Of a stretch of DNA of 64,000 nt, positions 19,295 through 37,953 are shown in pieces. The stretch covers positions 29,689-93,688 of the forward strand of contig DCYR01000007.1 of NCBI GenBank assembly GCA_002331495.1, given 5' to 3'. This DNA is from Patescibacteria group bacterium UBA2105. Its GTDB lineage: Bacteria; Patescibacteriota; Minisyncoccia; Phycocordibacterales; UBA2100. The notes under the pieces are model-generated. The model was not told the origin of the DNA. It did no database searches and saw only the letters and a list, made by a program, of their open reading frames with translations. Position 1 is the stretch's first letter. Every line of letters starts with the position of its first letter. The position numbers were made by a program, and so were the translations under genes.

Positions 19295-21223
19295 CTACTC
19301 TAAAACACCTCGAATCCTACGTACTTCGGCCGAGCTAGCTTTCTCTTTTTTGATTCTAAAAACGCCTTGTATCTCTCCAGTGTTCGATACATGAGGGCCT
19401 CCACAAAACTCAAGTGAAAATGATTCATCCAGTCTAGGGTCGTCCGGGCTTGCCCCCGCTGGTCCGATCGAGTATACGTTAACGATATCAGGATATTTTT
19501 GTCCGAATTCCTGTTCGGCTCCAAGAGCTTCGGCTTCCCGCCTGGGGAGTGTCGTTTTGAGAACGGGGAGTTTGGCCTGGATCTGATCGTTCACTATCCG
19601 TTCCACCTCAGCTTTCTGCTCATCCGAAAGTTTTTCATGATGTGAAAAGTCGATGCGCAAGCGTTCCCCAGTAATATTGGACCCTCGCTGTTTGACGTGG
19701 CCCCCAAGCACAATTTGCAAAGCTTTCAGGAGCAAGTGGTGTGCAGTATGAAGTTGAGTTGTGGCGTTTGAGTGGTCGGCAAGTCCGCCCTTGAACTTTT
19801 GTTCAGCACCGGCACGACTTTTCGCTTTGTGCTCCAGTATAAGAGCTTCTACTTCCTTCCACTCTGTCTTGGTTCCATGTTCTTCCAAAATTTCCGCGAC
19901 AAGCTCCTTCGGAAAGCCGTCAGAGGTAATAACTTCAAAAACCTCGTTAGCCGGAATTGCTTTTTCGAATTCTTTTTGATTCCCAACCTCTCCCTCGTGC
20001 TTCAGCATCACCTTCTCCAGCTTCGATAGACCTCGTTTTAATGTCGCTCTAAAACGAGCCTCCTCATCCCCCACGGCTCTTTCAATCTCTGTGCGCCGCT
20101 CTTCCAATTCTGGATAGTGGTCTTTATAGGTGTCAGTGATGATGGCCACCGCCTCAACGAGCGTTCCCTCTTGTATGCCGAGCGTGTCAGCGTACTGAAC
20201 GCTGCGACGAAGCAAGCGGCGTGCAAAGTAGCCCTGCTCCGTGTTTGAGGGCCTTACGCCGTCACTGATCATGAACACGGCTCCTCGTAAATGATCTGCA
20301 ATTATGCGAAAACTTTTCAAATCATCCTTGTAGTACTTGTTACTCGCCTCTTCAAGATGTTTGATAACGTTGCTAAGGGAGTCCACGGCCAAAAACATAT
20401 CTGATTCGTTCGCTGAGGCGGCGGCAATACGCTCAAGACCACCACCAAAATCAACATTTTTCTGCGCTAGTTTCTCAAAGCCTTTGCCGGTCTTCGTGTA
20501 CTCCATAAAAACAGAGTTCCCTATCTCAAGGAAACGCCCACAGTCGCAGTTAGGGTGACAGTGTTCACCCCACGACGAGTCGTGTTCAGTTTCAAAGTCA
20601 TAAAACACTTCTGAGTCTGGCCCGCCGGGTTCTCCAACTGGCATATTATCAGGTACTCCTGATCGACTCCACCAGTTTTTCTTAGCGTCATAGCTAAAAA
20701 TGCGGGCTCCATCTTCCATTCCCTTCTTATACCCGTTCTCCTCTGAACCTACTTCCTGAAACCCATTTGAAATTCCAGTCTCACCAAAAAGTCGCCTCCA
20801 GATCTCAATGGATTCTTCGTCGCGTGGCACGCCTATATCTTCTGCACCGTCAAATACCGTTACGTAGAGTTTGTTTGGATCGAGACCAACTTCTTTTGTT
20901 AGAAATTCGAAAAACCATGGCAATTGCTCTTGCTTGAAGTAGTCTCCGAGCGACCAGTTTCCAAGCATTTCAAAAAAAGTGGTGTGACGGTTGTCCCCCA
21001 CCTCTTCGATATCTTCAGCACGAAATGATTTTTGAGAGTCTGTGAGACGGGTGCCCTTAGGATGCCGCTCACCCAAAAGGTAGGGCAGTAATGGTTGCAT
21101 TCCCGATCCAGTAAAGAGCGTGGTCGGATCGTTCTCGGGAACGAGTGACGCTGAAGGAATAGCCGCGTGACCTCTCGCCACAAAAAAGTCTAGATATTTT
21201 TTCCGAAGTGCCTGAGTGTCCAT
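19295..21223 (-). CDS. alaS: Alanyl-tRNA synthetase, short form (catalytic, tRNA-recognition and editing HxxxH...CxxxH domains; C-Ala domain absent)
   Basis: Class II AlaRS N-terminus (FTGSGMQP, GNWSLGDYFK) and editing motifs (HTAHHLL...H..., CGG). 642 aa. Confidence 0.85.
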   Translation of the reverse strand: MDTQALRKKYLDFFVARGHAAIPSASLVPENDPTTLFTGSGMQPLLPYLLGERHPKGTRLTDSQKSFRAEDIEEVGDNRHTTFFEMLGNWSLGDYFKQEQLPWFFEFLTKEVGLDPNKLYVTVFDGAEDIGVPRDEESIEIWRRLFGETGISNGFQEVGSEENGYKKGMEDGARIFSYDAKKNWWSRSGVPDNMPVGEPGGPDSEVFYDFETEHDSSWGEHCHPNCDCGRFLEIGNSVFMEYTKTGKGFEKLAQKNVDFGGGLERIAAASANESDMFLAVDSLSNVIKHLEEASNKYYKDDLKSFRIIADHLRGAVFMISDGVRPSNTEQGYFARRLLRRSVQYADTLGIQEGTLVEAVAIITDTYKDHYPELEERRTEIERAVGDEEARFRATLKRGLSKLEKVMLKHEGEVGNQKEFEKAIPANEVFEVITSDGFPKELVAEILEEHGTKTEWKEVEALILEHKAKSRAGAEQKFKGGLADHSNATTQLHTAHHLLLKALQIVLGGHVKQRGSNITGERLRIDFSHHEKLSDEQKAEVERIVNDQIQAKLPVLKTTLPRREAEALGAEQEFGQKYPDIVNVYSIGPAGASPDDPRLDESFSLEFCGGPHVSNTGEIQGVFRIKKEKASSAEVRRIRGVLE

Positions 21224-26947: not shown

Positions 26948-28003
26948 TTAGACCACGATTCCCCCTCCTACACAAACGTCATCATCATAGAGAACAAGTG
27001 ACTGCCCTGGAGCCATCACCACTTTCTCATCTAAGAGGATGCGAGCATTTTTGCTGTCAAAACTCTTGAGCGTGCATGCTATTGGTTTTGCGTGGTAGCG
27101 AATTTCACACGAATAATCCGCACTTTCCTTGAGTGGAATGAGCTGATTAAGCTGCCTCAGCTCAAGCATGTCTGTCGCCTCTTTCGTTTCAAGTTGTTCG
27201 GTTGAGATAGTGATTGTGTTCTTTGGTATGTCTTTTGCAACGACGTAGTGCACCAGGCCCTGTGCGTCTTTGTCCGTTATAGTAAAGCCTCCTCGCTGAC
27301 CTAAAGTCACAAGCTCGGCTCCGTCGTGTGACCCTATCACTTTGCCTTGCTCATCTAAAACATGGCCTGGTTTTGTTTCTATGAAATTTTCCAAGAACGA
27401 GCGCATGTTCACGTCGCCCATAAAGCACAACCCTTGGCTGTCGGGTTTATGTGCGCTCGGAATCCCGTGCTGCCTAGCGTAACTACGGACCTCCTGCTTC
27501 GTCATTTCTCCTATCGGCATAAGCGTATGTCGCAGTTCTTTTTGTGTGAGCTTCCAAAGGAAGTACACTTGGTCTTTACCCCGATCTATACCCCTGAGTA
27601 GCTTAGAAATTCCCCCCTCTTCCCGTATACGAGCGTGATGACCCGTAGCTATTTTGTCAGCCCCCTCTGCTAGCGCGTAGTCTAGAAAAGATCCGAACTT
27701 TATCGTTGAATTACAGAGCACATCAGGGTTAGGGGTCCGGCCAGCTTTGTACTCCTCGACCATCTCGTCGACCACGCTACGTTTGTACTCTTGGGCAAGG
27801 TCAAGGTGTCGAAACGGAATGCCTAGCGAGGCCGCGACACGTTTTGCGGCCTGTTCTTCTTCGTCTTGGTTGCATGCCAAAAAAGCAGGTTGCCAGACAC
27901 GAATAAACACACCGGTCACTTCGTGACCTTCGTTTTTTAGCATGTGGGCGGCAACTGCACTGTCCACCCCACCTGAAACGGCTACGAAAACCTTTTTCTT
28001 CAT
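26948..28003 (-). CDS. mnmA: tRNA-specific 2-thiouridylase MnmA
   Basis: PP-loop SGGVDSAV, catalytic cysteines; 351 aa. Confidence 0.85.
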   Translation of the reverse strand: MKKKVFVAVSGGVDSAVAAHMLKNEGHEVTGVFIRVWQPAFLACNQDEEEQAAKRVAASLGIPFRHLDLAQEYKRSVVDEMVEEYKAGRTPNPDVLCNSTIKFGSFLDYALAEGADKIATGHHARIREEGGISKLLRGIDRGKDQVYFLWKLTQKELRHTLMPIGEMTKQEVRSYARQHGIPSAHKPDSQGLCFMGDVNMRSFLENFIETKPGHVLDEQGKVIGSHDGAELVTLGQRGGFTITDKDAQGLVHYVVAKDIPKNTITISTEQLETKEATDMLELRQLNQLIPLKESADYSCEIRYHAKPIACTLKSFDSKNARILLDEKVVMAPGQSLVLYDDDVCVGGGIVV

Positions 28004-28033
28004 TGTTGTGCGAGCATAAATTGGCCTCGTCCC

Positions 28034-29104
28034 CTAGTCAACATAGCGGCGCTTTTTTGCGAGATGTTCTTCATAGGTGACACTGTAGTACGTTGTTCCG
28101 CGTCGGTCTGCAAGATAGAAGAGATACTCACTTGGCGTTGGATTCAGTGCGGCATATAAAGACGAACGACCTACTGCCGCTATGGGGCCAGGTGGAAGTC
28201 CTTTGTATACGTAAGTATTATAGGGATTATTTTCATCGGTGAGTTCATCAATGGTGATGTCATATGTTCCCTTGGCGTGTGTATATACAAATGTCGCGTC
28301 AACCTGCAGAAGCATGTTTCGACTAAGGCGGTTGTGAAGGACCCCAGAGATAAGTTGCCGATCCTCGTCATTCCAAGCTTCTTTTTCGATAATCGATGCT
28401 AGGGTAAGTATCTCGTGTAGTGTATACGGCGACTCTTCTATTTGTTGTCGGAATTCCGCGATTTGCCTGTCGAAATTGTCACGCATCACGCGAATAACTT
28501 CATCTTCTCGCACATTGGGGAGGAAGTAATAGGTATCCGGATATAAGTAGCCTTCATAATCTATTGCGTTCGCAAAAAATCTCTCTGGATCAAATTTAAA
28601 CAATCGTTGTGCATATATAACAGTCATGTCGGCAACCGTAGAACCTTCGGGTATTGTGATGCTTATGGGTTCCAGCCCAAAGACTCCTGTAGTTATTCTC
28701 CGTGCTATAGAAAACGTACTTACAGGTTTTGCAAATAAGTAGTCTCCCGCCTTCACGCTTCGCTGGCCTCCGCGCAAACGTACGATCATTTCGAGCCACC
28801 AAGCACTTCTGACAATCCCCTCTTCTTCAAGCGAAAGAGCAAGGGTAGCAAGGCTATCACCCTCCTCGATGGTTACATATTGTTCGGTGGGGAAATTCGA
28901 CGGTGGTCGAAACGCCCCAATATACAAGGCGGAGTACAACACCAGAATAAGAGTAATGATTAATAATGTGCGTCGGTTCAAATTGTGAAGCCGGTCTTCC
29001 TGCCAATTCTCAACGGAGCCACGAATTCGCTTCTGCCACGCAAAAAATCTCACGTAGGAACGAGACATCAGTTGTTGCAAATTTCTGTATAATCCATCGA
29101 GCAT
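28034..29104 (-). CDS. mltG: Endolytic murein transglycosylase MltG (YceG family)
   Basis: N-terminal TM plus YceG-like domain pattern. Confidence 0.7.
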   Translation of the reverse strand: MLDGLYRNLQQLMSRSYVRFFAWQKRIRGSVENWQEDRLHNLNRRTLLIITLILVLYSALYIGAFRPPSNFPTEQYVTIEEGDSLATLALSLEEEGIVRSAWWLEMIVRLRGGQRSVKAGDYLFAKPVSTFSIARRITTGVFGLEPISITIPEGSTVADMTVIYAQRLFKFDPERFFANAIDYEGYLYPDTYYFLPNVREDEVIRVMRDNFDRQIAEFRQQIEESPYTLHEILTLASIIEKEAWNDEDRQLISGVLHNRLSRNMLLQVDATFVYTHAKGTYDITIDELTDENNPYNTYVYKGLPPGPIAAVGRSSLYAALNPTPSEYLFYLADRRGTTYYSVTYEEHLAKKRRYVD

Positions 29105-29107
29105 GCT

Positions 29108-30466
29108 TTATGTAGGAAGATTTGCTGGAGGCTCACCCTTGGTTGAGGAAATACGGTCAATTCCAGGAGCCTTCGTTTCTCCCGTTGGGAAGTGATATAT
29201 AGTCGCCATCTCTTCGGTGGTGAGTACAAAGCGAGGGTGTTCGTACGGGGGATGGAACATGGCACGCCTATGGTAGGCGTCTAGTATGCGGCGCGAGTAC
29301 AAGCGCTCCAGAATACCACCTATTTCTTGCCACGGATAATCAATAGAGACATGCCACTTCGGAGCGGGACTAAACTTGTTGAGGTGACCAGAGGAAAAAG
29401 AGTTCCACAACCCTACAATATGAGTTGGTATGTTATTTCCCTTAAATGCGTCAGGTTTTGTTATGTACACTGCGCGTATACCAGCATCAAAGCCGGGTTT
29501 CTCTAGGCTCCGCTCAAGTGCCTTTATTGTGTTTACTTCCGCTGGCTTAAGAAGTGGGTAACCCTCAGAAAGTTCTCCGGTAATTAAATCCTTGGTCTTT
29601 GGTTTCGCTTTTTCGTAAATTTTCTCAATTTCCTCTGATGCTTCTTCTTTCCAACTCTTTCTCGGGCTCCAAGGTGTGGTGCGTATTTTTGCACCTTTGT
29701 TTTGACGGACAATTATCTGCACCCATAATTGCTCGCCAGGTCCTAAGTCGCTGAGGCGTTCGAACACACCCGAAAGTGGATCAACTATTTGCTCCTCTTT
29801 CTTTGCATCTTGGTCAAGCTCAAAGTCTATGTATGTTTTTATGGGGTACGGGTCGGGTTTCGCGAGCTCGTATTCCATTCCCCACACAGTGTTAATGTTA
29901 GGGTCATAACGAACACCTGCCGAATAGTCTTCGACCTCCTGAATTTCAAGATCAGGATATTGTGCATAAAATTGCGTTATGACATAGTCTTTGTGCTTAC
30001 CCCACACCCATACATAGAAGTGGATCTTCCCTTCGATAGAAACAAGCTCGAAGGACAACCATGGACGTACCTTTCCGTCCCACCAACGTGAAATAAAAGT
30101 GGTTTCCCCTGGGCCAAAGTTTAGGTTGGTAAAGACTTGTTCCATTGCACGAGGAGTCTTGAATATTTGTCGGGGAACCTTTATCTCCAATAGAACCGGA
30201 GTTTGCTCCGCAATAAAACGAGCACGTATGTACTTTTTCCATTGCTCCCACCACATAACGACAAGTATAAAGGGACCCCAAATGGGTGAGAATATAAAAA
30301 TCCACGTCAAAATGATAACAAGTAATGGTGGGTATATGCTTATTCCCAGAATGAGGATCCCCACGAAGGCAGAAACTGGTATAAGCCAGAGTGGTACGCC
30401 CAAGTAGTGTGTCCCCTCGACCTTAAAGAGAGCCATATGCAACGTATCATAACACGCGCTTCGCAA
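29108..30466 (-). CDS. Hypothetical membrane protein (2-3 N-terminal TM, large cytoplasmic domain)
   Basis: No family recognised. The stop codon overlaps or abuts the mltG start, so operon membership is likely. Confidence 0.4.
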   Translation of the reverse strand: MRSACYDTLHMALFKVEGTHYLGVPLWLIPVSAFVGILILGISIYPPLLVIILTWIFIFSPIWGPFILVVMWWEQWKKYIRARFIAEQTPVLLEIKVPRQIFKTPRAMEQVFTNLNFGPGETTFISRWWDGKVRPWLSFELVSIEGKIHFYVWVWGKHKDYVITQFYAQYPDLEIQEVEDYSAGVRYDPNINTVWGMEYELAKPDPYPIKTYIDFELDQDAKKEEQIVDPLSGVFERLSDLGPGEQLWVQIIVRQNKGAKIRTTPWSPRKSWKEEASEEIEKIYEKAKPKTKDLITGELSEGYPLLKPAEVNTIKALERSLEKPGFDAGIRAVYITKPDAFKGNNIPTHIVGLWNSFSSGHLNKFSPAPKWHVSIDYPWQEIGGILERLYSRRILDAYHRRAMFHPPYEHPRFVLTTEEMATIYHFPTGETKAPGIDRISSTKGEPPANLPT

Positions 30467-30498
30467 GAGCTTACACGGATTGAGAATGATTTGTGAAT

Positions 30499-31536
30499 TT
30501 AAACAAGCTCGAACCGACCGTCCTCGAGTCGTGTAAATGTATCCGAATCCTGTAAGTTTACCGCAATGGTATTGTCTTTAACGTATCGCTCGCGTTTCAC
30601 TCGGTCGATAATCTCTTTCTTGGTGAGCGGGCCAAGCTCTTTGAGTAGCTCACGTATGACATCTTTCACCACACCCTTTGAGTATCCCCACTCAGCTAGT
30701 GCATAGAGACCACGTCCGACAAGCACAAATCGAGGGTCTTTGATGAGTTCATTGTGAGTAGTTGCTACGTGTGCCTTACGGCCGAAAAGCTCTTCGATTT
30801 GTTGTGCTACTTCTGAGAAGTGCATCGGAGAACCGTGTCGCTTAAGTGTAAGATATGCGAAATCACGCATACCTTTTACACGCACTGAAGGTGACGTAGT
30901 AAGACCCCACTCACCCAGAGGGTTGCGCGCAATTTTTTTGGATAAGGAGAGCCAGCGAAGCAAGGTTTCTGCATTATCTTGTGCAATCTCTGCCTTCGCG
31001 AGCTCTTCTTTATAGCGCGCAACGATCTCTTCTTCTGGAAGTACAATGGAGTCGTCGAGGGACCCAAACACACCGGTAAGAGCGTCACGTATACCCTTGG
31101 CATACGCCTCGTCGATGTACCAGTGACTTACAAAGTCTCCTCCCTCTTTTACGCGGTAAAATTGTTCCCCAACAGTACAAAGGAACAGCAGCGCGTTTTC
31201 ATCAGCTTTGGTTTTCGCAATTGACTTAATAAGTTCGTGTTGCGATGTTACGCCCCCAAATTGCTCAAAGACACCCCTCAGCTCGTCAAATACTGGCTTA
31301 AGATCCTTGTAGCGTTCGGATTTTTGAATGCTCTTAATAGCGTGGTTTTCAATCTGTCGAACACGTTCGCGGGTGATGCTGTATGATTGACCAACAGACT
31401 CAAGTGTCTCGATTGTATTCGAGTCGATAAGTCCGTAGCGACGCGTGAGAACGTCGCGTGCCCGTTCATTTTCAACAACGCTCACAAGTTGAGAAGCGAT
31501 GTGCTTAGGTTTGAATGTGACTTTCATGGTTGTCAT
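30499..31536 (-). CDS. DNA-binding protein with N-terminal sigma-70 region-4-like HTH and C-terminal HARE-HTH-like motif
   Basis: TLESVGQSYSITRERVRQIENHAIKSI (region 4.2-like); C-terminus HFSEV...DPRFVLVGRGLYALAEWGY (HARE-HTH-like). Confidence 0.45.
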   Translation of the reverse strand: MTTMKVTFKPKHIASQLVSVVENERARDVLTRRYGLIDSNTIETLESVGQSYSITRERVRQIENHAIKSIQKSERYKDLKPVFDELRGVFEQFGGVTSQHELIKSIAKTKADENALLFLCTVGEQFYRVKEGGDFVSHWYIDEAYAKGIRDALTGVFGSLDDSIVLPEEEIVARYKEELAKAEIAQDNAETLLRWLSLSKKIARNPLGEWGLTTSPSVRVKGMRDFAYLTLKRHGSPMHFSEVAQQIEELFGRKAHVATTHNELIKDPRFVLVGRGLYALAEWGYSKGVVKDVIRELLKELGPLTKKEIIDRVKRERYVKDNTIAVNLQDSDTFTRLEDGRFELV

Positions 31537-31670
31537 ACTGTATCGGGCACGTAAAGCAGTTTTATCACGACAATACTACCCCGTCAAATATACGCCCGGA
31601 GTATTGGCCAATAAAGAAACTTTCGTGTGCGAGTATAAAAACATAGAAACAATTATTTGTCAAATAAATT

Positions 31671-34600
31671 CTATAGCACTAGGTTTATGAGTCTATTTGG
31701 CACAAATATTACCTTTTTCGGCTCCCCCTCAAGCCACCTTGAGAGTTTGTCTTCTCCCTGAACAACCTCCAAGACTGTCGCCTCGTCGGAATCGTTGGCT
31801 ACCACGACGCTGCCGCGCACTTTTCCGTTTACTTGTACCGCGATAGTGACCTCTTCATCCTTTGCGAGAGATTCGTCAAATTTTGGCCACGGGTGTGTGT
31901 GGACTGAACCTTCGCCCCCTCCGGCCTCCCAAAGTTCCTCAGCTATATGTGGTGCGAAAGGTGCCAAGATGCGGACGAATGTGGCGTACTGTTCTTTGGT
32001 GATTGAGCTCTTTTCTACTTCGTTCACAAACGACATCATTGCGGCTATTGCCGTGTTGAACTTGAGCTCTTCAATGTCGCCTCCAACCTTTCGTATCAAT
32101 TTGTGGAGACTCCGCTCTGCATCTGGACTCTTTTCGTCCACAGTATTCCCCTGGAGTCGCCACACTCGTTCAAGAAAACGAACAACGCCCACAATCCCAT
32201 TCTCATTCCAAAGGATTTCGTCTGCTAACGGTGCTGCAAACATCATATACATACGCACAGAGTCTGCACCGAAGCGCTCTACCATGTCGTCGGGGTTCAC
32301 TATGTTTCCTTTCGATTTGCTCATCTTCACACCTTCGGCATCAAGTACCATTCCCTGGTGGCGCATCTTCAAAAATGGCTCATCAAAGTCCAGAAGACCA
32401 ATCTTTTGCATTGCTTTGGTGAAGAAGCGCGCGTACATCAGGTGCAAATACGTGTGCTCTGCCCCGCCCACGTAGAGGTCGACTGGAAGCCAGTGCTTGA
32501 GCCTGCTCTCGCGGCAGAATTCTTCGTCGTTGTGTGGGTCTGGGTAGCGAAGGTAGTACCAAGAAGAGCAAACAAACGTGTCCATAGTGTCTACTTCCGG
32601 AGTCCAGCCTTCACCGAATATCTTCTCAGTACGCTCTTTGAGCTCTTTAGATTGCGCAAGCGGCGCCTCACCTGTCGGCATGAAATCGACATCTTCCGGG
32701 AGTAGCCACGGCAGATGCTCATCCGGTACCACGTGGGGGTTCCCCTCAGGGTCGTACACAATCGGAATTGGTGCTCCCCAGTAGCGCTGTCTAGAAATAG
32801 ACCAGTCACGAAGTTTGTAGGTGGTCTTCATCTCCCCACCTACGGCCTTGGTAATCATTTCTTTCGCCTCGAGATTATCAAGGTCATTAAATTTATCCGA
32901 GTTAACGAGGTTGCCATCACTCACGTATGGACTATCTCCTTTCTCAAATACCTCAACTGCGTGGTGGTGTGTTGGTGCAGTTAAAAAGCTTTTCAACTCA
33001 TCTAAGGTTAGCCACTCAACGCTGTGCCGCGCTTCTTCCTCGTCGGAGATTTGCTCTTGTGCGTCGTCCTGCAGTTCTATGTAGAACATGTGTCCGTGTA
33101 CAGTCCGATTCTCTTTCTTGGGGACGTGGTAGAACATGCCATCGACGACTCCCATGTCGCGGGTAATCTTTGCGTTCATGAACCCGGTCTCTTCGCGAAC
33201 TTCTTTCAAAACCGTTTGCTCTGGCGTCTCGTCATCTTCGATTCCGCCAGTCAAAAGTGTTCCCCACTCTACCTCCTTCCACTTAAGTGCTATGTACTTA
33301 TCTTCGCTCCAGTGTTTTACCAGTGCTATCACTCCGTTGCGAAACACCATCGGCTCCCCCTCTCGGAAGGCGCCTGGCTCAGTTGTTTGAATTAAACGAG
33401 GAGCGATTACCTGTCGTATCTCAATACCAAATTGTTTTGCGAAGTCCCAATCGCGCTCATCGTGGGCAGGTACGGCCATAATTGCACCGGTTCCATAGTG
33501 TGCGAGTACGTAGTCGGCAATAAAGATCGGGACCTCCTCGTTGTTTGCTGGGTTGATAGCCTTTACCCCCTTAAGCTCGACACCGGTTTTCTCTTTCGTC
33601 TCTACGGTGCGCTCAAGGTCGGTTTTCTTTGCAGCTGCAGCTACGTATTTGTCGACATCCGCTTTGTTCTCAATTTTCTCGGAAAGTTTTCCTACGAGTT
33701 CATGTTCTGGCGAGAGCACCATGTATGTTGCTCCGAAGAGTGTGTCGGGTCGAGTAGTAAATACTCTTACCTTCGGAACTATTGGTGCATACCAACTGTT
33801 GTTAGCGAGCCATGCCCACGCCGATTCATCGGTTGGCTCGTCATCGTTAAATTTGTTGCCAAGCTCAACGATGGCTGCGTCGGTTTCTTCGCTAAGAACA
33901 AGGCGCTCGACTGAGCTGTCCTTATGTTTAAAAATAAATACCACTTCGTCGTCGGTGAGGTATTCATTCCAAAAACCGGGCTCCATTTTCTCCACGATTA
34001 ATTCCTCAAATGCTTTGGCCGATGATTTCGGAAAACGCACACAGAGGAATCCATTTTTCGTGGCCTCAACTATCTCACCACCAACGGCATTGATGTCTTT
34101 CTCGGAGATATTTTTCTCGCCCATGATGAAGCTGCGCGCCTCATTCGGATCATCGTTTACAACTCTGGGAACCACGAACTCAATTTCTGCTCCCTCGCTT
34201 TTACCGATCCAGTTTATTTGATTCTTGCGTGTGTGTTCTGGCCAATCAATCTTTTCGTGCCCGTCGATAAGGTCTTGCGCAAAGTCAGTGATTTTGAAAA
34301 ACCAACTCGGTATTGGTTTTTGCATTACGTCTTTCTTACATCGCTCGCATGCGCCGCCTTCGACCTGCTCGTTTGCGAGTACTGTTTTGCAGGAATCACA
34401 CCAGTTTACGGTATCGGTCTTTTTGTATACGAGATCGTTCTTGAAAAATTGAATGAAGAGCCATTGTGTCCACTTGTAGTAGTTGGGCTCTGACGTCGTG
34501 ACCATTTCGTCGTAATCGTAGTCGATACCGAGCGATTTGAGCTGTCGCGTAAAGTTTTCAGAGTTTGTTTTGGTTGTCTCTTTTGGATGTACGCCCGTTT

Positions 34601-34877
34601 TTACCGCGTAGTTTTCTGCGGGAAGACCAAACGAGTCGAACCCCGTTGGATGCAATACGTTAAAGCCGGTCGCCTTCTTATATCGGGAGAAAATATCGTT
34701 GGCCGTATAGGCTTCGGTGTGCCCCATGTGAAGTCCGTCACCAGACGGGTACGGATACATGTCGAGGAGATAGAATTTTGGTTTCGCGGTGTCGTCTTTG
34801 TCTATTTTGTTGGCACCGGTCTCGTCCCAGGTCTTTTGCCACTTCTTTTCGACTTTCTGGTGGTCGTATTTCTGCAT
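31671..34877 (-). CDS. leuS: Leucyl-tRNA synthetase carrying an inserted Nudix hydrolase domain and a second ~125-aa insertion
   Basis: HMGH, TTRPDT, GTGAIMAVPAHDERD (CP1 editing site intact), KLRDWSISRQRYWGAPIP and KMSKS motifs. Start taken at MQKYDHQKVEKKWQKTW. A Nudix box G-X5-E-X7-KE-V-X-EE-X-G-F is encoded at about 33180-33248. Confidence 0.9.
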   Translation of the reverse strand: MQKYDHQKVEKKWQKTWDETGANKIDKDDTAKPKFYLLDMYPYPSGDGLHMGHTEAYTANDIFSRYKKATGFNVLHPTGFDSFGLPAENYAVKTGVHPKETTKTNSENFTRQLKSLGIDYDYDEMVTTSEPNYYKWTQWLFIQFFKNDLVYKKTDTVNWCDSCKTVLANEQVEGGACERCKKDVMQKPIPSWFFKITDFAQDLIDGHEKIDWPEHTRKNQINWIGKSEGAEIEFVVPRVVNDDPNEARSFIMGEKNISEKDINAVGGEIVEATKNGFLCVRFPKSSAKAFEELIVEKMEPGFWNEYLTDDEVVFIFKHKDSSVERLVLSEETDAAIVELGNKFNDDEPTDESAWAWLANNSWYAPIVPKVRVFTTRPDTLFGATYMVLSPEHELVGKLSEKIENKADVDKYVAAAAKKTDLERTVETKEKTGVELKGVKAINPANNEEVPIFIADYVLAHYGTGAIMAVPAHDERDWDFAKQFGIEIRQVIAPRLIQTTEPGAFREGEPMVFRNGVIALVKHWSEDKYIALKWKEVEWGTLLTGGIEDDETPEQTVLKEVREETGFMNAKITRDMGVVDGMFYHVPKKENRTVHGHMFYIELQDDAQEQISDEEEARHSVEWLTLDELKSFLTAPTHHHAVEVFEKGDSPYVSDGNLVNSDKFNDLDNLEAKEMITKAVGGEMKTTYKLRDWSISRQRYWGAPIPIVYDPEGNPHVVPDEHLPWLLPEDVDFMPTGEAPLAQSKELKERTEKIFGEGWTPEVDTMDTFVCSSWYYLRYPDPHNDEEFCRESRLKHWLPVDLYVGGAEHTYLHLMYARFFTKAMQKIGLLDFDEPFLKMRHQGMVLDAEGVKMSKSKGNIVNPDDMVERFGADSVRMYMMFAAPLADEILWNENGIVGVVRFLERVWRLQGNTVDEKSPDAERSLHKLIRKVGGDIEELKFNTAIAAMMSFVNEVEKSSITKEQYATFVRILAPFAPHIAEELWEAGGGEGSVHTHPWPKFDESLAKDEEVTIAVQVNGKVRGSVVVANDSDEATVLEVVQGEDKLSRWLEGEPKKVIFVPNRLINLVL

Positions 34878-35052
34878 CTGGCAATAGTAGCACTGGTTCT
34901 GAGGAACATACAAGAAAGAAGTGTTGCTTGAGTACGGGTATGATGTTACAAAGTACGCATGCAATTTGCACAGCACAACACAGATTTGCTGATGCTAGGG
35001 GCGACCAAGGTCGGTTGTGTTTTGCGTACCTAGAACATAGATACATAAAACA

Positions 35053-35090
35053 GAGTCGACCTTCCCGGTCGGCTCGTTTTGCTCTTTTTA
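35053..35090 (+). terminator. Intrinsic-terminator-like hairpin (9-bp stem incl. one G.U, 5-nt loop) followed by GTTTTGCTCTTTTT
   Basis: Seen directly: gagtcgacc-ttccc-ggtcggctc then a T-run. Confidence 0.35.
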
Positions 35091-35108
35091 ACCCAGCGGG
35101 AGAGGATC

Positions 35109-35243
35109 CATGGGCAAGAAAAGAAAGCCCAAGTGCAACGGCAATCAACATGCGGCGTATCTTCGAGCTGCGGCGAAGCGACGAGCATTTCGGGCTCAAG
35201 AAGCCAAGAAGGCGCGTAAGAAAAGACAGGGAAAATGAGATAG
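35109..35243 (+). CDS. Candidate 44-aa highly basic small protein (MGKKRKPKCNGNQHAAYLRAAAKRRAFRAQEAKKARKKKTGKMR)
   Basis: GGAGG 4 nt upstream of the ATG, which is rare in this window. Preceded by a hairpin+T-tract and followed by a strong hairpin+T-tract on the plus strand. Below the ORF-track cut-off. Confidence 0.25.
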
Positions 35244-35290
35244 TTCTTCATGCCTGAACCACCGTTTTTTCAGAATCGGTGATTCGGAGC

Positions 35291-35334
35291 CTGCAACGAT
35301 GCAATGAAAGGGGTCGCGAAGATAATTCTTCGCG
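35291..35334 (+). terminator. Strong intrinsic terminator (12-bp stem, 4-nt loop, then TGATCTTTTGGCTTTT)
   Basis: gggtcgcgaaga-taat-tcttcgcggccc + T-rich tail. Confidence 0.5.
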
Positions 35335-35352
35335 GCCCTGATCTTTTGGCTT

Positions 35353-36324
35353 TTAGAAGTTGAGAGCCCGAATAGGCACGGGTTCCTTGAATGGAACGAT
35401 GCGTTCTGGATCGACCTCTCGCTCAAAGCACGTTCGTCCTTCGCCGTGAGGCCAGTCTTGCGTGGTCTGCTGCAAGTCGCGCACACGCCAATCGCTTAGG
35501 TCTGCCTTGTCGATGTCGAATGCTGGTAGCGGCAAGCTGAATGTTGCACAAAGCTCAAAAGCAAGGTTGCCAGTCTTTGTGTACTCATAGTCGTCTCCTG
35601 TCTCTGGGTCGACTTGAATTTGAGCACCCACGAGTGGGTTTTTAAGTTCGTCGAGAGACTCAGGAAGTCGTTCGGTCGTTTGATAGTAGTTAGTTACTTG
35701 GTATTGGATGCCTTGCAGGTCATTAATACGTTGTTGATCGTAGCGAAGTAGGCGCTGCGTATAAGGAGAGCCCATAATGAAGAATCCGGCCATGATTGAT
35801 ACAAGAACAACCAACGACACAGCAGCCGCTATTGTTTTTGAAAGACTTTCCCTATTTTCCCACTTGCCCTTGATGTCTGAGATGTAGTAATAGAACACTC
35901 CCGCCGCGACAACAAGTACCGTTATAACCTTAAGTAGGAATGCAGCGGTAATCTCCTCGCCGCTGAGAAATGTGTTAATAAGCACAATTAGGTCAGCAAG
36001 TATTGCAATTCCGGCGACAAACACCGCTAGGAATACAAGCCAACGACGAACCCATAGTTCCTTCTTAAGCGGGTCTTTCCGGATATCCTGATTGAGCATG
36101 CGCGTAAGCGCAATGTATACAGGGAAGATTACGATAAGGCTCGCAATGGCAAATTGAATACCTCCCGAGTATGGGTCGTAGCCAATTATGGCTGTGTCAC
36201 CCACTAAACGCTCAATGTACTCGAATGTCAGTGCAATAAAGCTTCCCACTGAAAAGTAGAGTGCAACCATAGCTCCGAGCCACATAAAGAAGTCTTTTGG
36301 TGTTACTTTGAGTTTTTCAGACAT
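35353..36324 (-). CDS. Hypothetical polytopic membrane protein with C-terminal soluble domain
   Basis: About 6 TM helices then a domain of about 130 aa; no family recognised. Confidence 0.4.
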   Translation of the reverse strand: MSEKLKVTPKDFFMWLGAMVALYFSVGSFIALTFEYIERLVGDTAIIGYDPYSGGIQFAIASLIVIFPVYIALTRMLNQDIRKDPLKKELWVRRWLVFLAVFVAGIAILADLIVLINTFLSGEEITAAFLLKVITVLVVAAGVFYYYISDIKGKWENRESLSKTIAAAVSLVVLVSIMAGFFIMGSPYTQRLLRYDQQRINDLQGIQYQVTNYYQTTERLPESLDELKNPLVGAQIQVDPETGDDYEYTKTGNLAFELCATFSLPLPAFDIDKADLSDWRVRDLQQTTQDWPHGEGRTCFEREVDPERIVPFKEPVPIRALNF

Positions 36325-36382
36325 AAAATACTATTGTGAGAGCTAATGCTCAAATTGTACACTTTTTTCTCCGAAGCGCGAC

Positions 36383-36847
36383 TCAATCTCCACCTGCTCC
36401 GTACGGCGAGTAACCGGCGAAGATCGGTGGTGCTCCAATAGCACGCGCAGCTATATCCATGTTCTCACGGGCTTCATCGCTCCAATAGAAATTAGTGTTT
36501 AGCACCGCACGTACCTCCGTGTGCGAAAATCCGCATTCGTTCAGAAATGCAAGAAGCGGCTGATGCCACCCCTTCTTCTTGTCACGTTGCACTTCCAAAA
36601 TGTAGTCGCGCAGATGTGTCACAAGCATGGTCTCGCCTTTTCTCGAACCAGAGAGGAGTTCAAAGCCAGCGAAGTCTCTTCTCAAAAGCGAAAGCAAACT
36701 TGCAAGAACGTCACCAGCGCCCATTTTTCTGATTCCCTCAATGTTTCCCTCGTGTGCCAGTTGAAGGAGCTCAAATTTGGAGTCTTCTTCTCTTGATTCC
36801 AGTTGAGCATCGGTCTTCTGGTATGAAAATCCTTCTTTTTCTCTCAT
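36383..36847 (-). CDS. Hypothetical protein
   Basis: 154-aa ORF immediately upstream of ychF in the same orientation. Confidence 0.35.
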   Translation of the reverse strand: MREKEGFSYQKTDAQLESREEDSKFELLQLAHEGNIEGIRKMGAGDVLASLLSLLRRDFAGFELLSGSRKGETMLVTHLRDYILEVQRDKKKGWHQPLLAFLNECGFSHTEVRAVLNTNFYWSDEARENMDIAARAIGAPPIFAGYSPYGAGGD

Positions 36848-36852
36848 ATAAG

Positions 36853-37953
36853 CTATCCGTGTCGAAACTCCATTGTATCACCGTCCTCAATAATATACTC
36901 TTTTCCCTCTGTACGAACCAAGCCTCGTTCTCTTGCTGCAGACCACGAACCTGCAGCAACAAGTGATTTCCAATGAATGGTTTCCGCGCGAATAAATTTG
37001 GTTTGAAAGTCAGTATGAATAACACCCGCCGCTTGCGGGGCCGTACTCCCGGCCTTAATGGTCCACGCTCGAGTTTCTTTCGGGCCGGTTGTAAAAAATG
37101 ATATGAGGTTGAGCAGTGCGTATCCGGTACGAATAAGCTCGTCCACCCCGCTCTCAATTACGCCAAACTCACGGCGAAACTCCGCCGTGTCGTCGTCGGC
37201 GACATCTTTTAGTTCGTTTTCAACCCCGGCATCTACTTCTACCCAAAATGCACCAGAGTCTTCAAGAAAGCGCTTTAGCAGCTCTCCCCGCTCATCAGAT
37301 TGCTCATGCACATTCAGCCCCGCACTTTTCTTGTTAAGTACGTACATGAATGGCTTCATCGTAATTAGGTGCAGTCCCTTAACCTGTTCGAGTTCCTTTT
37401 CGTCTAAGTTAGTGGCGCGAGCGAGTTTCCCAGACTCTAGAGTTGTCAAAAGTTTCTCCAAAGCTCCTCTCAAGACCGTGGCTTCCTTACTCCCGGATCG
37501 TATGTCTCGGTCAATAGTTCCGAGTCGCTTTGTCACTGTCTGAGTGTCCGCAAGGACGAGCTCAATGTTGATTATATCGATATCGTGGGTTGGATTAACC
37601 GCTCCGTGTACATGCACCACGTCTTCGTCATCAAAAACTCGCACCACTTGCGCGATGGCATTTACCTCACGAATGTTTGCAAGGAACTGATTTCCCAGCC
37701 CTTCCCCCTCCGAGGCGCCTTTCACAAGGCCTGCTATGTCTACAAACTCAACTGCGGCGGGGATTGCTTTTTCAGACTGTGACATTTCAGCAAGGCGCTT
37801 TAATCGCGTATCGGGAACAGCCACAACGCCGACAGATGGGTCGATTGTGCAAAATGGGAAATTCTCCGCCTGTACAGATTTTTTAGTAAGTGCATTAAAA
37901 AGTGTCGATTTGCCGACATTCGGTAGACCGACTATTCCAATAGATAAACTCAT
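36853..37953 (-). CDS. ychF: Ribosome-binding ATPase YchF (Obg-family GTPase)
   Basis: GIVGLPNVGKSTLFNALT, DIAGLV, NxxD pattern, TGS C-terminal domain. Confidence 0.9.
   Translation of the reverse strand: MSLSIGIVGLPNVGKSTLFNALTKKSVQAENFPFCTIDPSVGVVAVPDTRLKRLAEMSQSEKAIPAAVEFVDIAGLVKGASEGEGLGNQFLANIREVNAIAQVVRVFDDEDVVHVHGAVNPTHDIDIINIELVLADTQTVTKRLGTIDRDIRSGSKEATVLRGALEKLLTTLESGKLARATNLDEKELEQVKGLHLITMKPFMYVLNKKSAGLNVHEQSDERGELLKRFLEDSGAFWVEVDAGVENELKDVADDDTAEFRREFGVIESGVDELIRTGYALLNLISFFTTGPKETRAWTIKAGSTAPQAAGVIHTDFQTKFIRAETIHWKSLVAAGSWSAARERGLVRTEGKEYIIEDGDTMEFRHG

What the first reader, a model, noticed from the sequence alone, without database searches (positions are those of the whole stretch)
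32937..33398. Leucyl-tRNA synthetase with a complete Nudix hydrolase domain inserted beside the leucyl-specific region
What the sequence shows: after the conserved ...QFGIEIRQVIAP segment, the LeuRS ORF encodes about 150 extra residues. They contain a near-canonical Nudix box, GGIEDDETPEQTVLKEVREETGF (G-X5-E-X7-[K]E-V-X-EE-X-G-F), a preceding beta-strand region (GVIALVKH...KYIALKWK) and the W-G-T-L-L-T-G-G variant of the W.LPGG element. The ORF then resumes with recognisable leucyl-specific and KLRDWSISRQRYWGAPIP sequence.

The CP1 editing site (TTRPDT ... GTGAIMAVPAHDERD) appears intact, so the insertion does not replace editing.

Established knowledge: aaRS can make Ap4A/Ap3A from aminoacyl-adenylates, and Nudix enzymes hydrolyse such dinucleoside polyphosphates and other nucleoside-diphosphate-X compounds. 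A cis-fused Nudix could therefore destroy Ap4A made by the synthetase, clear misactivated aminoacyl-AMP, or sense nucleotide alarmones.

I do not know of a described LeuRS-Nudix fusion.
Basis: partly seen in the sequence, partly recalled or inferred. Interest (0 to 1): 0.8.

Follow-up and report, generated by a model that had tools for sequence, protein, structure and literature searches.

The report
Nudix hydrolase nested inside leucyl-tRNA synthetase
A complete, apparently active Nudix nucleotide-pyrophosphatase domain sits inside the proofreading (CP1) domain of this uncultured bacterium's leucyl-tRNA synthetase, and it belongs to an undescribed Nudix subfamily that, in every multi-domain case inspected, occurs only in LeuRS.

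Summary

It replaces an 11-residue loop inside the CP1 editing domain. It is not beside the leucine-specific domain, which this enzyme lacks.

It is not a chimera. The identical protein is recorded on 8 contigs, GC3 matches the rest of the gene, and dozens of Patescibacteria (CPR) LeuRS carry the same insert.

New here:
- The Nudix belongs to a subfamily that, among its 150 best relatives in 1.84 billion proteins, occurs only in LeuRS or as a small free-standing gene.
- It sits at several different LeuRS sites, in one to three copies.
- Three of seven free-standing relatives looked up lie beside or just upstream of leuS.
- The catalytic Glu triad is intact in 224 of 239 copies.
- Syntenic close relatives have a plain 788-819 aa LeuRS, so the module is accessory.

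Nearest characterised folds are ApnA/polyphosphate hydrolases. The substrate is inferred, probably Ap4A-like, and untested. I found no publication describing this fusion.

The parts
31671..34877 (-). leuS coding sequence, 1068 aa plus stop, counted from the ATG at 34877 (the mechanical ORF extends to a GTG at 34976)
   Evidence: ORF. (100% identity and coverage to 1068-aa P0001). (TIGR00396, 913.7 bits against cut-off 548.4).
34170..34877 (-). LeuRS residues 1-236: first half of the catalytic Rossmann fold, with HMGH (34719-34730) and the ZN1 region, ending at ...GKSEGAEIEFVV
   Evidence: aligns to T. thermophilus LeuRS 1-236..
33774..34169 (-). Ins1: a 132-aa insertion of unknown family at 'site A', the entry into CP1, where T. 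thermophilus has 5 residues
   Evidence: gap between Tt 236 and 242. (no Pfam or PDB match). (modelled as an alpha/beta unit; block pLDDT mostly 77-91 over residues 237-330, falling to 52-60 over 331-368). (homologous module in 8 other LeuRS sequences, at site A or site B).
33402..33773 (-). CP1 editing-domain core, residues 369-492, with TTRPDT (33741-33758) and GTGAIMAVPAHDERD
   Evidence: PF13603, residues 369-495 on profile positions 22-144 of 185. (aligns to Tt 242-363).
32934..33401 (-). Nudix hydrolase domain, residues 493-648, nested in CP1 at 'site B'
33180..33248 (-). Nudix box GGIEDDETPEQTVLKEVREETGF, residues 544-566. Expected metal-binding residues are E559, E562 and E563.
   Evidence: (E559/E562/E563 intact in 224 of 239 family domains).
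33105..33134 (-). Family-specific motif FYHVPKKENR, residues 582-591. It lies at the end of a strand plus the following loop, the position of the Nudix 'X-loop' that reads the substrate's X moiety.
   Evidence: K587 and N590 nearly invariant, R591 about 80%, aromatic residues at 582/583. (strand 569-584, loop, strand 589-602). (X-loop concept, PMC5389931).
32802..32933 (-). C-terminal part of CP1, residues 649-692: SPYVSDGNLVNSDKF...YKLRDW, returning to the catalytic core
   Evidence: aligns to Tt 375 onward. (Y.G.G.L.NSG.F motif conserved in insert-less LeuRS).
31671..32801 (-). Second half of the catalytic domain with KMSKS (32313-32327), no leucine-specific domain, then the anticodon-binding and C-terminal domains

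Best explanation
Shown: the segment is a genuine, complete Nudix pyrophosphohydrolase domain with intact catalytic residues. It is nested in a loop of the CP1 editing domain of the organism's orthologous bacterial-type LeuRS. This makes a three-level nesting: Nudix inside CP1 inside the Rossmann fold.

Shown: it belongs to a distinct Nudix subfamily with signature ...KHW...W...GG-x4-[EQ]-x7-[RKAM]E-x2-EE-xG[YF]...[FY][YF]-x3-K-x2-NR...H-x3-W. Among the multi-domain proteins inspected, this subfamily is found only in LeuRS of Patescibacteria/CPR bacteria. It occurs at several LeuRS sites, in one to three copies, or as a small separate gene that is often beside or near leuS.

Inferred: each copy is an active Mg2+-dependent pyrophosphohydrolase for a polyphosphate-bridged nucleotide. 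My best guess is that it degrades dinucleoside polyphosphates (Ap4A, Ap3A, Ap4N). Many aminoacyl-tRNA synthetases are known to make these when the aminoacyl-adenylate reacts with ATP or another NTP, and I assume LeuRS can too. The domain would act in cis by proximity to the synthetase rather than through a fixed channel.

Shown: the module is accessory. Close relatives with the same gene order have a plain LeuRS.
For: Identity and fold:
- PF00293 at 54 bits.
- AF2 pLDDT 96.7.

Catalytic competence:
- E559, E562 and E563 are all Glu in 224 of 239 family domains, including every copy in the multi-copy (double- and triple-Nudix) LeuRS examined.
- Box positions 550 and 558 covary: E-R in 33 sequences, Q-M/A/T in 28. 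This is what I would expect if the two box residues form a structural pair (my inference), and it does not touch the Glu triad.

Link to LeuRS:
- An exhaustive phmmer search of 1.84e9 representative proteins found 413 relatives at E<=1e-3.
- Of the best 150, every multi-domain protein is LeuRS or a LeuRS fragment.
- In the 270 sequences held, the domain sits after the CP1 core 158 times (plus 8 probable), before it 23 times and in the C-terminal half 5 times. 38 are free-standing and 7 are in unclassified contexts, several of them LeuRS fragments.
- Site-A copies are up to 68% identical to site-B copies of other LeuRS.
- Of 7 free-standing homologues looked up, P0138 lies 10 bp and P0164 3 bp upstream of leuS, and P0134 lies in a same-strand cluster ending in leuS.
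- L008 shows YchF-DUF5671-...-Nudix-leuS. The window shows YchF-DUF5671-leuS with the Nudix inside.

Substrate class:
- Foldseek ranks Aquifex and Chlamydia Ap4A hydrolases 2nd and 4th.
- The NCBIfam models matched by most members are RppH, which I know also to have ApnA hydrolase activity: 38 of 54 members.
- The loop motif carries invariant K and N and a mostly conserved R, which suits a phosphate-rich X moiety (inference).

Not an artefact:
- The identical protein is recorded on 8 contigs and in seven source collections.
- Composition is uniform.
Against: - No biochemical data exist, and substrate prediction for Nudix enzymes from fold or sequence is notoriously unreliable.
- Sequence identity to all characterised enzymes is 10-24%. 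The top structural match, 2AZW, is itself uncharacterised.
- All NCBIfam hits fall far below their cut-offs, about 24 bits against 103-259.
- Variable insertion site and copy number, and absence from syntenic close relatives that also lack a neighbouring Nudix gene, argue against tight mechanistic coupling to LeuRS chemistry.
- If Ap4A removal were the purpose, other synthetases would be equally good hosts.
- Four of seven free-standing homologues are not near leuS.
- I could not obtain model coordinates, so I do not know where the Nudix active site points.
Confidence: 0.4

Rival explanations
1. Piggy-backing house-cleaning enzyme. The Nudix is a general nucleotide-pool sanitising or salvage pyrophosphatase (NTP/dNTP or damaged nucleotides). 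It has no mechanistic link to leucylation. It is carried in permissive CP1 loops of an essential, constitutively expressed protein as a way of co-expressing small enzymes in a tiny genome.
For: - Site A of other CPR LeuRS carries a Ham1/ITPase house-cleaning domain (P0051) or a PF06821 serine hydrolase (P0104, P0084, P0085, P0100, P0120, P0054).
- L001 clusters TatD, Nudix, an HD-domain YfbR-like nucleotidase and a second Nudix between metG and leuS.
- Insertion site and copy number vary.
- The module is dispensable in syntenic relatives.
- NTP pyrophosphohydrolases (NudB, NudI, YmfB, MutT1) are among the fold neighbours.
Against: Pure piggy-backing predicts many host proteins. Among the 150 best relatives in 1.84e9 proteins, the only multi-domain host is LeuRS. 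Free-standing copies also recur immediately upstream of leuS.
Confidence: 0.25
2. RNA 5'-end enzyme. The Nudix is an RppH-like RNA pyrophosphohydrolase or decapping module. It is held on a tRNA-binding scaffold so that it acts on the 5' end (ppp, NAD or Np4A cap) of tRNA-Leu or another LeuRS-bound RNA.
For: - RppH and YtkD models are the NCBIfam families matched by most members: 38, 36 and 17 of 54.
- The domain sits next to CP1, which handles the tRNA acceptor end (established knowledge of LeuRS).
Against: - Scores are far below the RppH cut-offs.
- Bacterial tRNA 5' ends are normally made by RNase P as monophosphates (established knowledge).
- Nothing in the window suggests unusual tRNA-Leu processing. 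No tRNA genes were found in the window.
Confidence: 0.12
3. Extra editing step. The Nudix hydrolyses misactivated aminoacyl-adenylates (for example norvalyl- or isoleucyl-AMP) released from the synthetic site. This would be a pre-transfer proofreading add-on.
For: - It is located within the editing domain.
- The other inserted modules at these sites with a Pfam assignment are also hydrolases.
Against: - Aminoacyl-AMP is a mixed acyl-phosphate anhydride, not a pyrophosphate-linked NDP-X. I know of no Nudix enzyme with this activity.
- The canonical CP1 editing motifs are intact, so no editing deficit needs compensating.
Confidence: 0.05
4. Non-catalytic module. The Nudix fold serves as a nucleotide sensor, tRNA-binding surface or structural spacer.
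For: - About 40% of family members replace the first box Glu with Gln and the box Arg with Met, Ala or Thr.
- The window's domain has Lys in place of the box Arg.
Against: The Glu triad is kept in 94% of 239 copies across deep divergence, including all copies in the multi-copy proteins examined. That is the pattern expected of active enzymes.
Confidence: 0.07
5. Assembly chimera or mis-join that brought a Nudix gene fragment into leuS.
For: None found.
Against: - The reading frame is continuous.
- GC and GC3 are uniform.
- The identical 1068-aa protein is recorded on 8 contigs and in seven source collections.
- 74 of the 120 best LeuRS hits carry a Nudix at exactly this site.
- The full-length AF2 model is confident across both junctions.
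Confidence: 0.01

Closest known systems
Bacterial-type leucyl-tRNA synthetase (T. thermophilus 1H3N, E. coli 4AQ7 and similar)
   Same: - Full collinear match to the catalytic core, CP1 editing domain, anticodon-binding domain and C-terminal domain.
- HIGH, KMSKS and the editing motifs are present.
- TIGR00396 scores above its cut-off.
   Different: - Carries two large insertions flanking the CP1 core: Ins1 of 132 aa and the Nudix of 156 aa.
- Lacks the leucine-specific domain that precedes KMSKS in the T. thermophilus enzyme.
Nudix (di)nucleoside/polyphosphate hydrolases: Ndx1 (Ap6A), Rv2985/MutT1 (ApnA), Aquifex and Chlamydia Ap4A hydrolases, NUDT2, DIPP/DDP1
   Same: - Canonical metal-binding Glu residues.
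- An aromatic residue and basic residues in the loop after the box.
   Different: - Only 10-21% identical.
- Own signature motif K-x2-NR.
- Not free-standing here but nested in an aminoacyl-tRNA synthetase.
- Activity untested.
2AZW, the Enterococcus faecalis MutT/nudix family protein (structural genomics, function unknown)
   Different: 21% identity. It is a free-standing protein from a Firmicute. Its uncharacterised function gives no functional transfer.
RppH / YtkD RNA pyrophosphohydrolases
   Different: Scores are about 24 bits against cut-offs of 116-259, so these are not members.
Other synthetases with added catalytic domains, for example IleRS with a GNAT domain (NCBIfam NF040702)
   Same: An accessory enzyme domain fused to a class Ia synthetase. 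The family appears in the NCBIfam hit list.
   Different: Different enzyme and different domain. Here the added domain is nested inside the editing domain. A 2026 survey of domain insertions reported PF13603 as never acting as a host in 213 events (PMC13114784).

Membership tests
Bacterial leucyl-tRNA synthetase (TIGR00396 leuS_bact) | Whole-protein HMM score above the curated cut-off | tested here: met
   913.7 bits against cut-off 548.4.
Bacterial leucyl-tRNA synthetase | Class I signature motifs HIGH and KMSKS | tested here: met
   HMGH at residues 50-53 and KMSKS at 851-855. Both lie in invariant alignment columns.
Bacterial leucyl-tRNA synthetase | CP1 editing domain with the threonine-rich motif and the conserved Asp of the GTG...HD.RD segment | tested here: met
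   PF13603 at 189 bits. TTRPDT and GTGAIMAVPAHDERD are present and align to Tt 242-363.
Bacterial leucyl-tRNA synthetase | Leucine-specific domain before KMSKS (typical but not universal) | tested here: not met
   Query residues 849/850 map to Tt 582/636. Only 6 residues lie between QGMVL and KMSKS. All 120 best hits also lack it.
Nudix hydrolase superfamily (PF00293) | Pfam NUDIX score above the gathering cut-off | tested here: met
   54.2 bits against 21.1 on the excised segment.
Nudix hydrolase superfamily | Nudix box G-x5-E-x7-R-E-U-x-E-E-x-G-U | tested here: met
   GGIEDDETPEQTVLKEVREETGF. All positions fit except Lys for Arg. The Glu triad is conserved across the family.
Nudix hydrolase superfamily | Alpha/beta/alpha Nudix fold | tested here: met
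   [not shown]
Nudix hydrolase superfamily | Mg2+/Mn2+-dependent hydrolysis of a pyrophosphate bond | not testable with these tools
   Needs an enzyme assay.
Nudix ApnA (Ap4A/Ap6A) hydrolases | Conserved tyrosine in the loop downstream of the box that stacks on adenine (Dunn et al. 1999, as summarised in PMC5389931) | tested here: inconclusive
   F582 and Y583 lie 16-17 residues after the box. These positions are F/Y and Y/F in nearly all family members. I could not check structural equivalence to NUDT2 Tyr87 without model coordinates.
Nudix ApnA hydrolases | Hydrolysis of Ap4A-Ap6A | not testable with these tools
   [not shown]
RppH RNA pyrophosphohydrolase (NCBIfam PRK00714 models) | HMM score above the curated cut-off | tested here: not met
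   19-24 bits against cut-offs of 116-259.
MutT 8-oxo-dGTPase (NF008044, TIGR00586) | HMM score above the curated cut-off | tested here: not met
   24.3 bits against 148, and 18.5 against 97.9.

The most novel reading that the evidence does not exclude
Patescibacterial LeuRS is a modular platform whose CP1 flanks, and a few other loops, accept interchangeable hydrolase 'plug-ins'. These are a LeuRS-dedicated Nudix subfamily in up to three active copies, a Ham1 ITPase, a serine hydrolase and the unknown Ins1 module. In this reading the Nudix provides a previously unrecognised clean-up or proofreading activity tied to leucylation. Candidate activities are destruction of synthetase-made Ap4A/Ap4N or processing of the 5' end of bound RNA. 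That would make it a new class of synthetase-associated quality control.
Probability: 0.25. Interest if true: 0.8.

Novelty: new variant of a known kind. Interest (0 to 1): 0.65.

Why it matters
Aminoacyl-tRNA synthetases are the long-known source of Ap4A and related dinucleotides. Whether these are signals or damage products is still debated.

A natural, recurrent and LeuRS-specific physical coupling of a synthetase to a Nudix pyrophosphatase would give a direct experimental handle on that question. One could compare wild type with a Glu-triad mutant and measure Ap4A output, fidelity and growth.

It also shows that the CP1 editing domain can itself host a folded enzyme domain. A recent survey of 213 insertion events found this domain only ever as an insert, never as a host (PMC13114784).

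Finally, it illustrates how ultra-small CPR genomes build multifunctional proteins. The Nudix subfamily, its K-x2-NR motif and the Ins1 module are all uncharacterised.

Tried and rejected
- Assembly chimera or frame disruption: rejected.
- Insertion beside the leucine-specific domain: rejected. That domain is absent and the insert lies in CP1.
- Leader RNA or T-box upstream of leuS: Rfam finds nothing at gathering score over the whole window, or at E<=1 over 34800-35400.
- tRNA genes in the window: none.
- Ins1 identity: no Pfam hit at E<=1 and no PDB sequence hit better than E=2. The word-indexed homology search returned one LeuRS fragment only.
- The single-sequence scan recovered one close relative (L013, 83% identity) plus generic Nudix genes, so it gave no taxonomic survey.
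- The AFDB fold library was unavailable.
- Model coordinates are not exposed. I therefore could not measure where the Nudix active site points relative to the editing and synthetic sites (one search shows no model file).
- Literature: six full-text searches and two targeted paper look-ups found no description of a LeuRS-Nudix fusion.
Full report
**1. The observation**

The - strand carries one long ORF, 31671..34976. Its likely start is the ATG at 34877, giving a 1068-aa protein. This protein is 100% identical over its full length to a database protein recorded on 8 contigs (longest 303 kb) and in seven source collections, named only 'hypothetical protein CL652_02985 [bacterium]'.

The whole protein is a bacterial-type LeuRS. 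TIGR00396 scores 913.7 bits against a cut-off of 548.4. The motifs HMGH, KMSKS, TTRPDT and GTGAIMAVPAHDERD are all present.

The finding's interval translates to residues 494-647. It scores 54.2 bits on Pfam NUDIX, against a cut-off of 21.1, with E=2e-14. The box GGIEDDETPEQTVLKEVREETGF is canonical except for Lys in place of the box Arg.

GC and GC3 of the insert match the rest of the gene. The full-length model is confident through both junctions, with mean pLDDT 89.1 and pTM 0.79.

**2. Where the domain sits**

I aligned the protein to T. thermophilus LeuRS (1H3N):

| Query residues | T. thermophilus residues |
|---|---|
| 1-236 | 1-236 |
| 369-492 | 242-363 |
| 649-849 | 375-582 |
| 850-1067 | 636-875 |

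- The Nudix (493-648) therefore replaces the loop Tt 364-374. By my knowledge of the published structure, that loop lies inside the CP1 editing domain (Tt 224-417).
- The Pfam editing-domain profile is interrupted at about position 144 of 185.
- The sequence that resumes after the insert (Y.S.G.L.NS..F...) is the C-terminal part of CP1. It is conserved in insert-less LeuRS.
- The real leucine-specific domain (Tt ~577-634, boundaries from my knowledge) is missing. Only six residues separate QGMVL from KMSKS, in this protein and in all 120 best homologues.
- A second insertion, Ins1 (residues 237-368, window 33774-34169), replaces Tt 237-241 at the entry to CP1. It matches no Pfam family and no solved structure.

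**3. Distribution**

*Among the 120 best LeuRS homologues*
- All hits that carry a specific lineage name are Patescibacteria/CPR: Kaiser-, Adler-, Moran-, Campbell- and Pacebacteria, and Paceibacterota.
- 78 have an insert of more than 120 aa at this same site, and 74 of those are Nudix domains.

*Among all proteins*
- An exhaustive phmmer search of 1.84 billion representative proteins with the Nudix segment found 413 relatives at E<=1e-3 and 154 at E<=1e-10.
- I mapped LeuRS segments onto the best 150. Every multi-domain hit is a LeuRS or a LeuRS fragment. The rest are free-standing proteins of about 150-200 aa.

*Position and copy number*

| Position of the Nudix domain | Count among 239 instances in 270 held sequences |
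|---|---|
| After the CP1 core (site B, as in the window) | 158, plus 8 probable |
| Before the CP1 core (site A) | 23 |
| In the C-terminal half | 5 |
| Free-standing | 38 |
| Unclassified longer proteins (several are LeuRS fragments) | 7 |

- Some LeuRS carry two or three copies. P0121, P0122 and P0111 have two in tandem at site A plus one at site B.
- P0100 has one inside the anticodon-binding domain.
- Site-A copies are often most similar to site-B copies of other LeuRS, up to 68% identity.
- Free-standing P0134 and P0138 are 60-63% identical to embedded copies.
- The module has therefore moved repeatedly between sites and between fused and separate states.

**4. Gene neighbourhood**

I looked up seven free-standing homologues.
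- P0138 lies 10 bp upstream of a gene starting MTKYNPSKIEKKW...HMGH, which is leuS.
- P0164 lies 3 bp upstream of a Pfam-confirmed leuS.
- P0134 lies in a same-strand cluster: metG, TatD, Nudix, an HD-domain nucleotidase, a second Nudix, then an insert-less leuS.
- The other four are not near leuS.

The window's gene order is YchF, DUF5671, leuS, Sigma70_r4/HARE-HTH, a 452-aa ORF (no Pfam hit; it occupies the place of the DUF8128 gene in relatives), YceG, MnmA.
- The same order occurs in the closest Nudix-less relatives, including a complete 688-kb Kaiserbacteria genome. There LeuRS is 788-819 aa and no Nudix gene is nearby.
- L008 shows YchF, DUF5671, two small genes, Nudix, leuS.

So the window's gene is the orthologous leuS. 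The Nudix and Ins1 are lineage-specific, dispensable additions. The same locus can carry the Nudix either as a separate upstream gene or inside leuS.

**5. Is the domain an enzyme, and of what kind?**

*Catalytic residues*
- Across the 74 site-B domains from the LeuRS search, G544, G545, E559, E562, E563, G565, K587, N590, L602, H618 and W622 are at least 90% conserved.
- Across all 239 instances, the Glu triad E559/E562/E563 is intact in 224. This includes every copy in the multi-copy proteins examined.
- Box positions 550 and 558 covary: E with R in 33 sequences, Q with M/A/T in 28. This is what I would expect if the two box residues form a structural pair (my inference), and it leaves the Glu triad untouched.
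- Both types occur within single triple-Nudix proteins, which hints at two sub-specificities.

*Substrate-reading loop*
- The strand end and loop after the box carry the family motif [FY][YF]-x3-K-x2-NR. This is the position of the Nudix 'X-loop' that reads the substrate's X moiety (PMC5389931; secondary structure).

*Structural and family neighbours*
- Next come Rv2985 ApnA hydrolase (16.3), Ndx1 Ap6A hydrolase (15.6), DDP1/DIPP1 (15.3/14.8) and the decapping effector AvrM14 (15.1). RppH scores 13.4.
- Foldseek gives the same picture.
- RppH models are the NCBIfam families hit by most members, 38 of 54, but far below their cut-offs.

*Inference.* The domain is an active pyrophosphohydrolase for a substrate with a long phosphate chain, of ApnA, NTP or RNA 5'-end type. 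It is not a member of any named family.

**6. Mechanism**

*Shown*
- A nested Nudix with intact catalytic residues.
- A subfamily found only in LeuRS among the multi-domain contexts inspected.
- Recurrent fusion and adjacency to leuS.
- Accessory status.

*Inferred (confidence about 0.4)*
- It removes dinucleoside polyphosphates formed when Leu-AMP reacts with ATP or another NTP.
- It acts by proximity rather than through a fixed channel, because its position and copy number vary.

*Main rival (0.25)*
- It is a nucleotide house-cleaning enzyme merely carried by LeuRS.
- Supporting this, Ham1/ITPase and PF06821 serine-hydrolase domains occupy site A in other CPR LeuRS, and the module is dispensable.
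- Against it, no host other than LeuRS appears among the 150 best hits.

*Other rivals*
- RppH-like action on bound RNA: 0.12.
- Non-catalytic role: 0.07.
- Aminoacyl-AMP editing: 0.05.
- Artefact: 0.01.

**7. Comparison with what is known, and novelty**

- LeuRS and Nudix are both well-known families.
- Sequences with this architecture sit in public databases under generic names such as 'leucine--tRNA ligase', 'class I tRNA ligase family protein' and 'NUDIX domain-containing protein'.
- Six full-text searches found no paper describing a LeuRS-Nudix fusion.
- The main Nudix-clan review never mentions tRNA or synthetases.
- A 2026 survey of domain insertions reported the LeuRS editing domain as exclusively an insert and never a host.
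- I rate this a new variant of known kinds: an undescribed architecture plus an uncharacterised Nudix subfamily found fused only to LeuRS.

**8. Verdict**

The function remains inferred. Interest is 0.65.

Noticed in passing
window 33774-34169 (- strand), LeuRS residues 237-368: A second 132-aa insertion, 'Ins1', sits at the entry to CP1. It has no Pfam or PDB match and is modelled as an alpha/beta unit; block pLDDT is mostly 77-91 over residues 237-330 and falls to 52-60 over 331-368. Homologous modules occur in 8 other LeuRS sequences: at the same site in P0047, P0109 and P0116, at the Nudix site in P0232, P0100, P0069 and P0073, and in the fragment P0251.
   Followed up: partly
window 32313-32345 (- strand), LeuRS residues ~845-855: The leucine-specific domain that precedes KMSKS in T. 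thermophilus LeuRS (about 50 aa) is absent. Only six residues separate QGMVL from KMSKS, in this protein and in all 120 best homologues.
   Followed up: partly
related proteins P0051, P0104, P0084, P0085, P0100, P0120, P0054: Other CPR LeuRS carry a Ham1/ITPase domain or a PF06821 serine-hydrolase domain at the site before CP1, often together with one or more Nudix domains. P0100 also has a Nudix inside the anticodon-binding domain. Every inserted module with a Pfam assignment is a hydrolase.
   Followed up: partly
related proteins P0121, P0122, P0111: These LeuRS carry three Nudix copies with intact catalytic residues. They mix two box subtypes, E...RE and Q...[AMT]E, which covary across the family. 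This suggests two sub-specificities.
   Followed up: partly
L001 2482-11389: A same-strand cluster runs metG, unknown gene, TatD, Nudix (P0134), two small genes, an HD-domain YfbR-like nucleotidase, unknown gene, a second MutT-like Nudix, then an insert-less leuS. This is a nucleotide-hydrolase block bracketed by two class I synthetase genes.
   Followed up: no
window 26948-37953 compared with L010, L011, L012: The order YchF, DUF5671 membrane protein, leuS, Sigma70_r4/HARE-HTH protein, a 452-aa ORF without Pfam hits (at the place of the DUF8128 gene in relatives), YceG, MnmA is strictly conserved between the window and Kaiserbacteria-like genomes. This places the window in that part of the Patescibacteria.
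   Followed up: yes
window 34878-35352: A long 476-bp spacer lies upstream of leuS. It contains a terminator-like GC hairpin plus T-run just after the DUF5671 gene (about 35303-35335). It also contains a 42-aa very basic ORF on the opposite strand (35110-35238 +, MGKKRKPKCNGNQHAAYLRAAAKRRAFRAQEAKKARKKRQGK). There is no Rfam match.
   Followed up: partly
window 19295-21223 (- strand): The alanyl-tRNA synthetase is only 642 aa. It has the catalytic domain and the tRNA_SAD editing motif but apparently no C-terminal C-Ala region.
   Followed up: no
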